From the IMG/VR virus record IMGVR_UViG_2541047712_000002: a stretch of 64,000 bases of DNA; one strand, given 5' to 3'. How positions within the stretch are numbered: the stretch's first letter is position 1; every line of letters begins with the position of its first letter. This document shows positions 54,001 through 57,000 of this stretch, one piece after another. This DNA is from a virus. Taxonomy: Duplodnaviria > Heunggongvirae > Uroviricota > Caudoviricetes. The position numbers are program-made.

Positions 54001-57000
54001 CGCTACGGGCAACTTAAGGAGAACGAAACCATTACTATCCAAGCGAAACGATTCACTGCCACCATCACAAGAACACCTAGTCGTAGAGTGGCCTTGATCA
54101 AAAAAGTCACAACCGAATAAAAATACAATGATAAGTATTTACTTACTTATCTTTTGTGTATAAGATGACTTTGTTTTCGTTGAGACGCGACTGTTTGAAC
54201 TTAAATACAAGTGCAAACGAAGAAGTCTATCTGGCAGTAGCCTAATAAGCCAAACACCAGCGAGGTCAGTTTCCAGCCTCGTTACCGAAATGGGACACAC
54301 TGAGCGAGTGTGATTGCAGAACGCAGGAGGGAACATTCATGTTCCCTCCGATGAAGTAACAGAATGGGCGGTTGGTATATTTTCAACTCCATATGACTCC
54401 CGGATTCTTAGCCACTGACCGCCCATCCTGTTACGTCATTTGTTCAATTATGTCGTTTATACTGGGTTAAAAAGCGGCGACGTAGCCCGGCTGGTATGGT
54501 TAGCCAGCACACAACGTTGAGGCCATTACATTTTTATCAATTCTAAGGTTCTATTCACAGAGATACCGGCGAGCGTTGATATGTAACATGTTGGGCAAAC
54601 ATTCAATCGGAGTAGTGGCCTCAACGTTGTGAAGACAGGATTGTTGTGTAGGTTTAACCACTGTTGCCATTGGTGCCTGTTTTCACAACAAATGATTCCA
54701 TACATCACATTGTATAAATTACAAAGTAGGTGCTGTCCTCAGAAACATCATCTACTTAAAGATTTTGCCTTCTACTATTGAGCGAAGTCGAAAGCGTCTG
54801 GCACTAACGAAAAGTGCAAGTAGCGGTGCGTTTCCTGGCAGAAACTAAACCGTCGCGATTGGCACTGTTGAGTAATAAATACTGGCAGTGCTGAATTGAT
54901 GGTGTAGCTCAGCGGTAGAGCAGTTGGCTGTTAACCAACTGGTCGGTGGTTCGAATCCACCCACCATCGCCAATTTAGGGGAGTTAGTCCGTAGAGGTAG
55001 CGGTGTAGACTGTAAATCTACTGTCATGGCGACTCGGGTGGTTCGACTCCATCACTCCCCACCAAATTGCCGGTTTAGCTCAGCGGGAGAGCGCGAGAGC
55101 CAAAGCATCGTTTCTACTTCGGTAGACAGCCTTGCTGGTCAAATGACAACGATTCGATGTTAGGCCAGAGGTCAGCGGTTCGAGTCCGTTAACCGGCACC
55201 AATACAACGATAAGATCATTACGGTTAATCGTCGTTCATGTGCACAATGACTGGTCGAAAGGTAGTGATCTTACCGTTGTGGTGGATTCGCAGACTGATG
55301 CGATAGCTTTCTTGGATGTTAGGGAAATGCGGCCGCAAATCTTCCCTTTCGCGAGCGGTGATCGTCCGTAGTCCTAATTGGCTGCACCGTATGCCGGAGA
55401 TTCAGTACCGGCCACCACAACGGCCGGAGAGTAGGGAGCATGGTGCTCAAGCGGTCTTGAAAACCGTCCCATTGCGCAAGCGATGATGGTTCGATTCCAT
55501 TACTCTCCGCCAGACACAGCGTTGAGCGGTTTGGCCTTTTAATCACCCAGATTAAGACTCCGCTAACATAAACCAGACCGCTCAACGCTGTGATAGACAA
55601 TTACGGCAGACGTTCTTAACCATTGCTTCTTAGCATCGTAGCAACACTTTTTTTCAGCGCAAATAATTAAAGGGGCTTCGGCCCCTTTTTGCTTAGTTGA
55701 AATCCAAAGAATCAAGTTCTGCTTTAAATTTATCGACAATTTTCTCAACTTCAACAACAATTTCATCAATCACCTTTTCTTTGTGTTGATTAGAGTTGAG
55801 TGCTAAATAGGCATTTTCTAACTTATACCTAGACAGACTATTTTTAATCTCATCAGCGAATCTATTGGTGAAACCATTGGTTAACAGAATACTTCTCTCT
55901 CGGGGGGAAATAGGATACTTATCGTTGAGTTTTATTAGCCTCTTTAAATGTTTTTCATCCTTGATCACCCTCACTTTATTACCTGCGATTCTAAGCTCCC
56001 AGCCTATAAAACCAGGTAACAAAGAGTTGAACTCAGCTACTTTATCGGCTGCATTTTCCATCCTCAGCTCAATGCTGTTTCGCATATGCATAGGTAGGTC
56101 ATTAAATCTTTGAAGCAAATGTTGTCGGCAGGGGTTGTTGTAAGACCACAGAATTGCGAACGTAGCCCTTAAATGACGGTATCTTGAATCGATTTTAGGG
56201 GGCTCACGACCTCGAACCATTTCTTCAACATAAAACTCTACATCTTTTCGGTATTCGTTATCAAATATCACAGCAGCATAAGAGTCCAAATAATGAACTT
56301 TCGATATTGCTTCTTCAAAAAAAAGTTGGCCTTCGAAGAAGTTATACTTGCTTAGCAGGCTGTAAAGTCTCTTTGCGTCATAGGTTTTATTAGTGTCAAT
56401 ATTAAGGCCGAATGTAGCTATCAGCAGGCTTACATTAGGACTAATGCTGTTGCGCAGCTGTTCTATGTAAGCTCTCTTTTCATAATCGGCTGATGACGGC
56501 GAATAGAAGTCTTTATCTAAATAATCAAGAATTAAAACTATGTGGTTAATATATTTAATGTAAACGGAGTTTTTGGTTACATGGTAATAAATAGCCTTGA
56601 TGAGATTCATTCCCAGTTTTGCATTAAGTTCCCTATCATCCTGCAAGGTCTTGTTAACATCCTCAAGTAATCTATTATGCTGTTCAAGTAATATGCCGTA
56701 CCATTCCTTAAAAGAGGCTTTTTTCATTTCAAGGAGTGAAGCTGCCGTCAGCCTAGTGGCCCTCATTGCTGCCTTTGCACTATGCCTTGCCTCGTAAGCG
56801 GCCCATGCTGTGGCGAAAAATGCAAGTGAAGTGGCAAGTGTACCTATGACCTCTACGTTTTCCTTGACGGTATCCCAGAAAATAATCATCACTGTCCCAA
56901 GTATGAGGATTAACAAAACAGGCATTTTATCAGTGTCTTTGGTTAATTTTGAAACTGAATGATACCTAATCGACCATACCATTTCAGCTAGTTTAAAGCT

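What the first reader, a model, noticed from the sequence alone, without database searches (positions are those of the whole stretch)
55426..55512. Atypical tRNA-Ser(UGA)-like gene with extendable 8-9 bp acceptor stem, A at position 8 and a compressed D-arm
Anticodon stem-loop and long variable arm fit tRNA-Ser, but the acceptor stem can extend to 8-9 bp and the D-arm is a short GAGC/GCTC helix with a 5-nt loop. These traits recall tRNA-Sec or suppressor-like architecture more than canonical tRNA-Ser, so the gene may have altered identity or function.
Basis: seen in the sequence. Interest (0 to 1): 0.4.

Follow-up and report, generated by a model that had tools for sequence, protein, structure and literature searches.

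The report
Phage serine tRNA with 8/4 fold
This is a real serine tRNA gene on an E. coli phage-plasmid whose cloverleaf has an 8-bp acceptor stem and a 4-bp T-stem instead of the usual 7 and 5; this selenocysteine-tRNA-like shape was described in 2017, and it almost certainly still just reads serine codons.

Summary
Window 55426-55512 (+) is a tRNA-Ser(UGA) gene with A at position 8, a compact GAGC/GCTC D-hairpin, a long variable arm, G73 and an encoded CCA. Neither Rfam tRNA model reaches its gathering score, and the tRNA-Sec model scores best (46.6 bits against a threshold of 47).

In 33 distinct phage relatives chosen by D-arm shape alone, position 8 is never U. Pair 8:65 covaries (A-U 21, G-C 10, switching in at least 3 clades). 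The canonical rival 49:65 shows no compensatory change. "Nucleotide 49" covaries with the 5' base of the variable arm instead. The fold is therefore 8/4, not 7/5 and not 9/3.

This is the "(8/4) tRNA-Ser" class that Mukai et al. (NAR 2017) reported from phages. They showed that 8/4 tRNAs with G73 are serylated and used by EF-Tu in E. coli.

The anticodon is a serine anticodon, the SerRS identity elements are present, the acceptor branch is 12 bp, and the tRNA-Sec elements that reject EF-Tu are absent.

The gene is common: 331 of 5,426 complete E. coli genomes, plus P7, D6 and rV5-like phages.

A more puzzling neighbour was noticed: a tRNA-Thr-shaped gene at 55069-55201 whose anticodon arm is replaced by a structured insert.

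The parts
55426..55512 (+). Complete tRNA-Ser(UGA) gene, 87 nt, CCA encoded
   Evidence: ARAGORN; sequence; identical gene annotated tRNA-Ser in RefSeq E. coli plasmids
55426..55433 (+). Acceptor stem 5' strand, 8 nt (GGAGAGUA), including A8
   Evidence: Pairs with 55501-55508. Pair 8:65 is AU 21, GC 10, GU 1, other 1 in 33 relatives, with 10 changes on both sides. The switch occurs in at least 3 clades.
55434..55435 (+). Two-nucleotide linker G9 G10 between the acceptor and D stems
   Evidence: 9:64 fails to pair in 6 of 33 relatives and does not covary, so G9 is treated as unpaired.
55436..55448 (+). Compact D-arm: stem GAGC (55436-39) / GCUC (55445-48), loop AUGGU (55440-44). A possible fifth pair A55440:U55444 would leave a 3-nt loop.
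   Evidence: All 4 stem pairs show compensatory changes and 97.7% of cells are paired. The GG in the loop is invariant or nearly so.
55451..55467 (+). Anticodon arm: 5-bp stem GCGGU/ACCGU, loop CUUGAAA, anticodon UGA at 55458-55460
   Evidence: ARAGORN places the anticodon at tRNA position 33. Four of the 5 stem pairs covary.
55470..55485 (+). Long variable arm: 6-bp stem CAUUGC/GCGAUG with a GCAA loop. Its last base, G55485, is the nucleotide a 7/5 fold would call position 49.
   Evidence: A contiguous V-stem of at least 4 bp that includes 'nt 49' occurs in 22 of 33 relatives. The terminal pair covaries: C:G 18, U:A 3, G:C 1.
55486..55500 (+). T-arm: 4-bp stem AUGG/CCAU, loop UUCGAUU
   Evidence: 50:64 and 51:63 covary; 52:62 and 53:61 are invariant G-C.
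55501..55508 (+). Acceptor stem 3' strand, 8 nt (UACUCUCC)
55509..55512 (+). Discriminator G73 and encoded CCA
   Evidence: The discriminator is G in 30 and U in 3 of 33 relatives.
55274..55423 (+). Leader of about 150 nt directly 5' of the tRNA, closed by a perfect 12-nt inverted repeat (55274-55285 / 55412-55423). It travels with the tRNA as one cassette.
   Evidence: Inverted repeat I2. The fold has z = -2.0. The leader plus tRNA is nearly identical in P7, D6 and p4_0.2, while the outer flanks differ. Its function is not established.
54898..55064 (+). Upstream members of the same-strand tRNA cluster: tRNA-Asn(GUU) 54898-54972 and tRNA-Tyr(GUA) 54978-55064
   Evidence: ARAGORN; Rfam tRNA model 75.5 and 41.6 bits
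55669..55688 (.). GC-rich terminator-like hairpin (AAAGGGGC-UUCG-GCCCCUUU) closing the tRNA region. It sits at the 3' end of the convergent ORF 55693-57030 (-).
   Evidence: Terminator scan, called on the minus strand. Whether it also terminates the plus-strand tRNA transcript is inferred.

Best explanation
The gene encodes a functional elongator tRNA-Ser(UGA) with the non-canonical '8/4' cloverleaf. A8 is not the usual unpaired U8. It pairs with U65 as an eighth acceptor pair. The T-stem has only four pairs. The nucleotide that would be position 49 closes the variable-arm stem. The D-arm is a compact hairpin that keeps the GG needed to contact the T-loop. The coaxial acceptor/T helix is still 12 bp, and the SerRS identity elements are intact (G1-C72, G2-C71, long variable arm, G73). 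The inferred mechanism follows. The tRNA is transcribed with the neighbouring Asn and Tyr tRNAs, and its 5' end is matured (by RNase P, as for other bacterial tRNAs; not tested). It needs no CCA addition because CCA is encoded. Host SerRS charges it with serine, EF-Tu delivers it, and it reads UCA, UCG and probably UCU. The AT-richer phage-plasmid uses UCA and UCU heavily. Shown here: the sequence features, the 8/4 fold by covariation, and the wide distribution. Inferred: expression, charging, decoding, and codon supply as the benefit.
For: ARAGORN calls tRNA-Ser(tga). Neither Rfam tRNA model passes its threshold, and the Sec model scores best at 46.6 bits. Five of the seven relatives scanned behave the same way, at 36.5-41.5 bits, while a canonical tRNA-Ser(GCU) next to one of them scores 50.6 bits on the generic model. 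I took 103 distinct phage tRNAs retrieved with positions 8, 9 and 63-65 left free and classed them by D-arm shape only. The 33 with a compact D-arm never have U8. In them, 8:65 can pair in 32 of 33 (AU 21, GC 10, GU 1). The other 63 pair 8:65 in only 31 of 63, but pair 49:65 in 60 of 63 with GC, CG and AT covariation. Formal counts: 8:65 has 10 changes on both sides, and 49:65 has none with 3 unpaired. 'Nt 49' covaries with the variable arm's 5' base. The A:U to G:C switch occurs in at least 3 clades. SerRS identity elements are present and the EF-Tu-rejecting pairs of tRNA-Sec are absent (sequence; rules from PMC9976931). 8/4 tRNAs with G73 are processed, serylated and used by EF-Tu in E. coli (PMC5389517). 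Window ORFs use UCA at 15.3 and UCU at 16.8 per 1000 codons, and the window is 44.4% GC. The identical gene is kept in 331 of 5,426 complete E. coli genomes and in P7, D6 and rV5-like phages.
Against: For this particular sequence both folds are possible on paper: G55485·U55501 gives 7/5 and A55433-U55501 gives 8/4. The choice rests on homologs. G49 can pair with both U and C, so in 29 of 33 relatives either pairing is possible. There is no expression, charging or structure-probing data for this tRNA. No sigma-70-like promoter was found upstream. The anticodon stem is 5 bp, not the longer stem described for allo-tRNAs. The codon-supply benefit is correlative, and the E. coli comparison values come from my memory of codon tables, not from a computation here. 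E. coli tRNA-Sec is serylated at only about 1% of the efficiency of the canonical serine tRNAs (PMC9976931), so a Sec-like shape could lower charging.
Confidence: 0.85

Rival explanations
1. It is a canonical 7/5 tRNA-Ser that merely has an unusual A8 and a short D-loop. G49·U65 closes a normal 5-bp T-stem, as ARAGORN draws it.
For: ARAGORN fits it to a 7/5 frame. 49:65 can pair in 30 of 33 relatives. RefSeq annotates the gene simply as tRNA-Ser.
Against: A 7/5 fold gives no reason for position 8 to switch from A to G exactly when 65 switches from U to C (21 AU, 10 GC, in at least 3 clades). It also does not explain why 49 covaries with the variable arm instead. In three relatives 49:65 cannot pair while 8:65 can. 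ARAGORN's 7/5 drawing needs a 3-bp D-stem that contains a wobble pair. The generic Rfam tRNA model fails its threshold.
Confidence: 0.08
2. It has altered identity: a tRNA-Sec-like, suppressor or recoding tRNA.
For: The best Rfam hit is the tRNA-Sec model at 46.6 bits, just under its threshold of 47. It has an 8-bp acceptor stem and a hairpin D-arm. Natural 8/4 allo-tRNAs with non-serine anticodons do recode (PMC5389517).
Against: The anticodon UGA reads serine codons, so serylation gives no recoding. The acceptor branch is 12 bp, not 13. C7-G66 and C50-G64, which make tRNA-Sec reject EF-Tu (PMC9976931), are absent. Almost all relatives carry serine anticodons: UGA 29, AGA 2, CGA 1, GCU 1. An ordinary long-armed tRNA-Tyr in rV5 also scores best on the Sec model, so that hit is not specific.
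Confidence: 0.02
3. It is not mainly a decoder. It could be a decaying pseudogene, or a tRNA-shaped RNA kept for another role such as a decoy for tRNA-targeting nucleases or a recombination target.
For: One annotation pipeline flagged a relative as a 'pseudogene', and tRNAscan-SE did not call the amino acid in D6. The gene moves between phage-plasmid families as a cassette with a structured leader. An inverted repeat with 20-nt arms lies just 3' of it.
Against: All four stems are maintained by compensatory changes across distant phage lineages. The anticodon loop CUUGAAA, the T-loop, the D-loop GG, G73 and CCA are all intact. A pseudogene would not keep these. A decoy role would not by itself explain why relatives keep serine anticodons.
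Confidence: 0.05

Closest known systems
[quoted passage not shown]
   Same: 12-bp acceptor branch split 8+4. Long variable arm. G73. Serine anticodon. Sec-like hairpin D-arm. High score on the Rfam tRNA-Sec model, which is how that class was first found. Located in phage tRNA clusters.
   Different: Mukai's phage examples came from uncultured marine and alpha-proteobacterial phages. This one is in cultured coliphages (P7, D6, rV5-like) and in SSU5-like and P1-like phage-plasmids of E. coli. Its anticodon stem is 5 bp. In the window its D-loop is 5 nt (or 3 nt), not a tetraloop. I could not see their figures or supplement, so I cannot say whether this exact sequence family was in their set.
Bacterial tRNA-Sec (selC; Rfam RF01852)
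   Same: 8-bp acceptor stem. Extended D-stem with a small loop. Long variable arm. G73. Serylated by SerRS.
   Different: tRNA-Sec has anticodon UCA, a 13-bp (8/5) branch, and C7-G66 / G49·U65 / C50-G64 elements that reject EF-Tu and recruit SelB. Here the anticodon is UGA, the branch is 12 bp (8/4), and the pairs are U7-A66 and A50-U64. The Rfam score is below the gathering threshold.
Canonical bacterial class II tRNA-Ser (7/5), such as the host tRNA-Ser(UGA)
   Same: Same anticodon. G1-C72 and G2-C71. Long variable arm. G73. Presumably the same synthetase and the same codons.
   Different: Canonical tRNA-Ser has U8, a 3-bp D-stem with a large D-loop and a 5-bp T-stem, and passes the generic tRNA model. 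The canonical tRNA-Ser(GCU) in phage Riker scores 50.6 bits. This tRNA has A8 paired, a hairpin D-arm and a 4-bp T-stem, and it fails that model.
[quoted passage not shown]
   Same: The 8/4 architecture and serine identity. They were shown to work with E. coli SerRS, EF-Tu and ribosomes.
   Different: Those carry Leu, Ile, Arg or stop anticodons and act as missense or nonsense suppressors, or are linked to toxin-antitoxin loci. This one carries a cognate serine anticodon, so no recoding is expected.

Membership tests
(8/4) tRNA-Ser / (8/4) allo-tRNA group (Mukai 2017) | 12-bp acceptor branch made of an 8-bp acceptor stem and a 4-bp T-stem | tested here: met
   8:65 covaries (AU 21, GC 10; 10 changes on both sides) while 49:65 does not. 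'Nt 49' covaries with the variable arm. The switch occurs in at least 3 clades. 9/3 is rejected because 50:64 covaries and 9:64 does not.
(8/4) tRNA-Ser / (8/4) allo-tRNA group (Mukai 2017) | Long variable arm and a G73 (or U73) discriminator, giving serine identity | tested here: met
   6-bp variable-arm stem with a GCAA loop at 55470-55485; G73 at 55509. Relatives have G73 in 30 and U73 in 3.
(8/4) tRNA-Ser / (8/4) allo-tRNA group (Mukai 2017) | Serine anticodon, which separates (8/4) tRNA-Ser from recoding allo-tRNAs | tested here: met
   UGA at 55458-55460. Relatives: UGA 29, AGA 2, CGA 1, GCU 1.
(8/4) tRNA-Ser / (8/4) allo-tRNA group (Mukai 2017) | tRNA-Sec-like D-arm with a long stem and a tetraloop | tested here: inconclusive
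   In the window the stem is 4 bp with a 5-nt loop, or 5 bp with a 3-nt loop. Many relatives have a 5-bp stem with a 4-nt loop. It is clearly a hairpin-type D-arm, but in this copy not exactly 'long stem plus tetraloop'.
(8/4) tRNA-Ser / (8/4) allo-tRNA group (Mukai 2017) | Anticodon stem longer than in canonical tRNAs. This is described for the allo-tRNA consensus. I could not see whether it applies to the (8/4) tRNA-Ser subgroup. | tested here: not met
   The stem is 5 bp, GCGGU/ACCGU, and a sixth pair would be an A·C mismatch. For this reason I file the gene as an (8/4) tRNA-Ser and not as a typical allo-tRNA.
(8/4) tRNA-Ser / (8/4) allo-tRNA group (Mukai 2017) | High similarity to the Rfam tRNA-Sec covariance model (the discovery criterion) | tested here: met
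   46.6 bits, E = 5.7e-8, best hit at the locus. Relatives score 36.5-41.5 bits. Caveat: a long-armed tRNA-Tyr also scores best on this model.
(8/4) tRNA-Ser / (8/4) allo-tRNA group (Mukai 2017) | Serylated, and used by EF-Tu and the ribosome | not testable with these tools
   Shown for other 8/4 tRNAs in E. coli (PMC5389517), not for this one.
tRNA-Sec (selC) | UCA anticodon that reads UGA | tested here: not met
   The anticodon is UGA, which reads UCA.
tRNA-Sec (selC) | 13-bp acceptor branch (8/5 in bacteria) | tested here: not met
   8+4 = 12 bp.
tRNA-Sec (selC) | C7-G66, G49·U65 and C50-G64, which reject EF-Tu and recruit SelB (PMC9976931) | tested here: not met
   The window has U7-A66 and A50-U64 (rule).
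tRNA-Sec (selC) | Reaches the Rfam RF01852 gathering score | tested here: not met
   46.6 bits against 47.
Canonical class II tRNA-Ser (7/5) | U8 unpaired, 7-bp acceptor stem and 5-bp T-stem | tested here: not met
   A8 is present, position 8 is never U in 33 relatives, and covariation favours 8:65 over 49:65.
Canonical class II tRNA-Ser (7/5) | Reaches the gathering score of the general tRNA model (RF00005, 29 bits) | tested here: not met
   Not listed at gathering threshold, although the neighbouring Asn and Tyr tRNAs are.
Canonical class II tRNA-Ser (7/5) | SerRS identity set: G1-C72, G2-C71, long variable arm, G73 | tested here: met
   All are present. G1-C72 and G2-C71 are invariant in the 33 relatives. 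Rules from PMC9976931.

The most novel reading that the evidence does not exclude
The 8/4 shape is an adaptation, not a neutral variant. Burying position 8 in the acceptor helix and shrinking the D-arm could let the phage serine tRNA escape something that acts on the host's canonical tRNA-Ser, while it stays chargeable by SerRS. Candidates are a tRNA-directed defence or competitor nuclease, or dependence on host modification at U8 and the D-loop. On this reading it would be a structural counter-defence device that moves between phage families as a leader-plus-tRNA cassette.
Probability: 0.1. Interest if true: 0.6.

Novelty: new member of a known kind. Interest (0 to 1): 0.3.

Why it matters
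The finding places a published but little-known tRNA architecture, 8/4, in very familiar material: phages P7, D6 and rV5-like phages, and the P1-like and SSU5-like phage-plasmids found in about 6% of complete E. coli genomes. There it has been annotated inconsistently, as tRNA-Ser, "pseudogene", "AA not called", or not at all. This gives a tractable E. coli system for asking whether the 8/4 fold changes charging, modification, EF-Tu binding or sensitivity to tRNA nucleases. It also warns that standard tRNA models under-call this class. It does not imply any change to the genetic code.

Tried and rejected
1. My first viral contigs pattern used the wrong spacer length (65-80 nt) and found one irrelevant locus. 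It was redone with 48-66 nt.

2. Classifying relatives by anticodon position alone mixed in an unrelated GCU-anticodon family with an ordinary D-arm. A loose hairpin finder caught spurious sub-hairpins inside long D-loops. I replaced both with the criterion that the hairpin must span the whole D region.

3. The 9/3 reading (a 9th acceptor pair G9·U64) was rejected because 50:64 covaries and 9:64 does not.

4. The Sec or suppressor reading was rejected on the anticodon, the 12-bp branch and the missing EF-Tu antideterminants.

5. I decided not to rely on "best Rfam hit is the Sec model" as proof, because an ordinary long-armed tRNA-Tyr in rV5 does the same.

6. The sigma-70 promoter scans found nothing credible upstream of the tRNA cluster.

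7. The leader 5' of the tRNA could not be tested for conserved structure, because all copies are nearly identical.

8. The Mukai et al. supplement is not held, so I could not check whether this exact family was in their list.

9. For the neighbouring interrupted tRNA-Thr-like gene, the genome contigs junction scan gave only 4 chance hits in GC-rich coding sequence. The viral scan added no new alleles.
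Full report
WHAT IS THERE. ARAGORN finds three same-strand tRNA genes in the window: tRNA-Asn(GUU) at 54898-54972, tRNA-Tyr(GUA) at 54978-55064 and tRNA-Ser(UGA) at 55426-55512.
- GGAGAGU (55426-55432) pairs with ACUCUCC (55502-55508).
- Position 8 is A (55433), not the near-universal U, and it can pair with U55501.
- G55434 could wobble with U55500.
- The D-arm is a short hairpin: GAGC (55436-39), AUGGU, GCUC (55445-48).
- The anticodon loop is CUUGAAA, with UGA at 55458-60.
- There is a long variable arm (55470-55485), a normal T-loop UUCGAUU, G73 (55509) and an encoded CCA.

HOW STANDARD MODELS TREAT IT. At Rfam gathering thresholds the generic tRNA model reports the Asn and Tyr genes but not this one. 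In E-value mode the best hit at the locus is the selenocysteine-tRNA model, at 46.6 bits against a threshold of 47. It aligns a long acceptor stem, a hairpin D-arm and a 4-bp T-stem. Five of the seven relatives scanned from other phages behave the same way, at 36.5-41.5 bits. A canonical tRNA-Ser(GCU) lying next to one of them scores 50.6 bits on the generic model. One caveat is that the long-armed tRNA-Tyr of rV5 also scores best on the Sec model, so this result alone is not proof. Human annotators have also had trouble with this tRNA. The D6 record says "AA not called by tRNAscan-SE". The rV5 record says "discovered using ARAGON". One pipeline flags a Klebsiella-phage relative as a "pseudogene". 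P7 leaves it unannotated. ARAGORN fits it into a 7/5 frame only by drawing a 3-bp D-stem that contains a wobble pair.

WHERE IT COMES FROM. The window is an SSU5/CMS-2020a-type phage-plasmid of E. coli. It is 98% identical to phages CMS-2020a and Cyrano, and 100% identical over 54800-55700 to E. coli plasmids of 113-115 kb. Nearby genes include a primase-like protein and an ATP-dependent DNA ligase. The identical 87-nt gene is in phage P7. D6 has a 98.9% copy. rV5-like phages have copies at about 90%. More distant versions (73-79%) occur in Klebsiella, Pseudomonas and Acinetobacter phages. It is present in 331 of 5,426 complete E. coli genomes. 334 of the 336 places are on plasmids, and RefSeq names it tRNA-Ser.

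TESTING THE FOLD. For this single sequence, U55501 can pair with A8 (an 8-bp acceptor stem and a 4-bp T-stem, "8/4") or with G55485 (the canonical 7/5 with a G·U pair). I scanned the viral collection with a pattern that fixed only the acceptor ends and the T-loop and left positions 8, 9 and 63-65 free. This gave 120 loci and 103 distinct tRNAs. I then split them by D-arm shape alone, which does not use the contested positions.
- The 33 sequences with a compact spanning D-hairpin include the window's sequence. None has U at position 8 (A 21, G 11, C 1). Pair 8:65 can form in 32 of 33, as A-U 21, G-C 10 and G·U 1.
- In the other 63 tRNAs, 8:65 pairs in 31 of 63. In these, 49:65 pairs in 60 of 63 with clear covariation (GC 33, CG 14, AT 11).

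On a MAFFT alignment of the 33, the formal count gives 8:65 ten changes on both sides. The rival 49:65 is GU 21, GC 8, AU 1 with 3 unpaired and no change on both sides. Overall, 97% of cells are paired against 79% in shuffles and 42-54% when partners are slid.

An independent test agrees. The base a 7/5 fold would one search is the 3' end of the variable-arm stem. A contiguous stem of at least 4 bp that includes it occurs in 22 of 33 sequences, and its partner covaries with it (C:G 18, U:A 3, G:C 1). That set includes the sequences in which 49:65 cannot pair. On a neighbour-joining tree built without these columns, the A:U to G:C switch at 8:65 falls in at least three clades, so it is not one inherited event.

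U64 pairs with position 50 (pairable 33 of 33; AU 26, GC 4, CG 2, GU 1), while 9:64 fails in 6 of 33 and does not covary. All four D-stem pairs show compensatory changes, and the GG of the D-loop is invariant or nearly so. The D-loop/T-loop contact of a normal L-shape is therefore probably kept; this last point is inference.

WHAT IT MOST LIKELY DOES. The anticodon is a serine anticodon, so serylation produces no recoding. The E. coli SerRS identity set is present: G1-C72 and G2-C71, the long variable arm, and G73, independent of the anticodon (PMC9976931). G1-C72 and G2-C71 are invariant across the family. The acceptor/T helix is 12 bp, the length EF-Tu recognises (PMC5389517), not the 13 bp of tRNA-Sec. 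Of the three pairs that make E. coli tRNA-Sec reject EF-Tu (C7-G66, G49·U65, C50-G64), two are replaced here by U7-A66 and A50-U64. Mukai et al. showed that natural 8/4 tRNAs are folded, processed, serylated and delivered by EF-Tu in E. coli.

I therefore infer an ordinary elongator role, reading UCA and UCG. It probably also reads UCU if U34 is modified as in the host tRNA; that is established knowledge of E. coli tRNA-Ser(UGA) and was not tested here. The window is AT-richer than its host (44.4% GC). Its ORFs use UCA at 15.3 and UCU at 16.8 per 1000 codons. From my recollection of E. coli codon tables, not computed here, that is roughly twice the host's usage, which fits a codon-supply benefit. 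Expression, charging and decoding remain inferred. No promoter was recognised. A terminator-like hairpin lies at 55669-55688.

COMPARISON WITH WHAT IS KNOWN. This is the "(8/4) tRNA-Ser" class of Mukai et al. (NAR 2017). [quoted passage not shown] The window's gene meets these features: the 8/4 branch, the long variable arm, G73, a serine anticodon, and Sec-model similarity. Its D-arm is a hairpin but not exactly "long stem plus tetraloop". Its anticodon stem is 5 bp, not extended. I therefore file it as an (8/4) tRNA-Ser and not as a typical allo-tRNA. It is not a tRNA-Sec: the anticodon is wrong, the branch is 12 bp, the SelB/EF-Tu discrimination pairs are missing, and the score is below threshold. 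The main text of Mukai et al. names uncultured marine and alpha-proteobacterial phages. I found no paper discussing this architecture in P1-like, SSU5-like or rV5-like coliphages, and the supplement could not be read. The fair label is a new member of a known kind.

VERDICT. The structural interpretation is right apart from the 9th pair. The functional speculation is not supported. Interest is modest.

SIDE OBSERVATIONS.
1. Window 55069-55201 holds both halves of the tRNA-Thr(UGU) gene that P7 and plasmid p4_0.2 carry intact at the same position. The anticodon arm is replaced by a structured insert, giving 133 nt instead of 76. Default ARAGORN and Rfam do not call it.
   - Full-length copies occur in 11 plasmid records, including Salmonella pSTM_Phi at 94%, and in the unrelated 74-kb phage Jgk1 at 87.7%.
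   - In Jgk1 the acceptor stem and the T-stem each carry two compensatory double changes. Several of the insert's differences fall in what my manual reading takes to be loops of small hairpins; the RNAalifold consensus folds part of the insert differently.
   - That pattern suggests a maintained tRNA-shaped RNA and not a decaying pseudogene.
   - Only three alleles were found, and its function is unknown.
2. The tRNA-Ser travels with a leader of about 150 nt, closed by a 12-nt inverted repeat, as a cassette that is nearly identical in P1-like and SSU5-like elements.
3. An inverted repeat with 20-nt arms lies directly 3' of the tRNA in this lineage only.

Noticed in passing
window 55069-55201 (+): A tRNA-Thr-shaped gene. 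Its 5' acceptor strand and D-arm, and its 3' T-arm, acceptor strand and ACCA, match the intact tRNA-Thr(UGU) of P7 and p4_0.2. The anticodon arm is replaced by a structured insert, giving 133 nt instead of 76. Default ARAGORN and Rfam do not call it. Copies occur in 11 plasmid records (including Salmonella pSTM_Phi, 94%) and in the unrelated phage Jgk1 (87.7%). In Jgk1 the acceptor stem and T-stem each show two compensatory double changes, and several insert differences fall in what I read as small hairpin loops. It looks like a maintained tRNA-scaffolded RNA with no anticodon loop. Function unknown.
   Followed up: partly
window 55274-55423 (+): A leader of about 150 nt directly 5' of tRNA-Ser, closed by a perfect 12-nt inverted repeat (55274-55285 / 55412-55423). 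Leader plus tRNA is nearly identical in P7, D6 (P1-like) and SSU5-like plasmids, while the sequence beyond it differs. This suggests a cassette exchanged between phage-plasmid families. The copies show no variation, so conserved structure could not be tested.
   Followed up: partly
window 55515-55592: An inverted repeat with 20-nt arms (95% complementary) and a 38-nt spacer starts 3 nt after the tRNA's CCA. It is present in the window and in p4_0.2, but P7, D6 and rV5 have a different shared 3' flank. It could be a recombination junction or a processing or termination structure.
   Followed up: no
L001 (phage rV5) 490-588: Downstream of the rV5 tRNA-Ser, ARAGORN calls a 99-nt 'tRNA-???' with a 4-base anticodon (atcc). 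Rfam's tRNA model gives 35.5 bits there. It is an unusual tRNA-like gene and is not present in the window.
   Followed up: no
window 54978-55064 (+) and L001 100-186: The neighbouring long-armed tRNA-Tyr(GUA) scores only 41.6 bits on the generic tRNA model. Its rV5 homolog scores best on the tRNA-Sec model at 33.7 bits. This shows that long variable arms alone push hits toward the Sec model.
   Followed up: no
window 58999-60361 (+): Fimbrial subunit-like (PF00419, DUF1120) and PapD-type chaperone (PF00345) genes sit on this phage-plasmid a few kb from the tRNA cluster. This is chaperone-usher pilus cargo on a phage-like element.
   Followed up: no
window 55693-57030 (-): A 445-aa ORF convergent with the tRNA cluster has no Pfam match. 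In the related plasmid p4_0.2 this position holds different genes: a Gp49 family protein, a glutaredoxin and a tyrosine recombinase. The region 3' of the tRNA-Ser is therefore a variable cargo junction.
   Followed up: no
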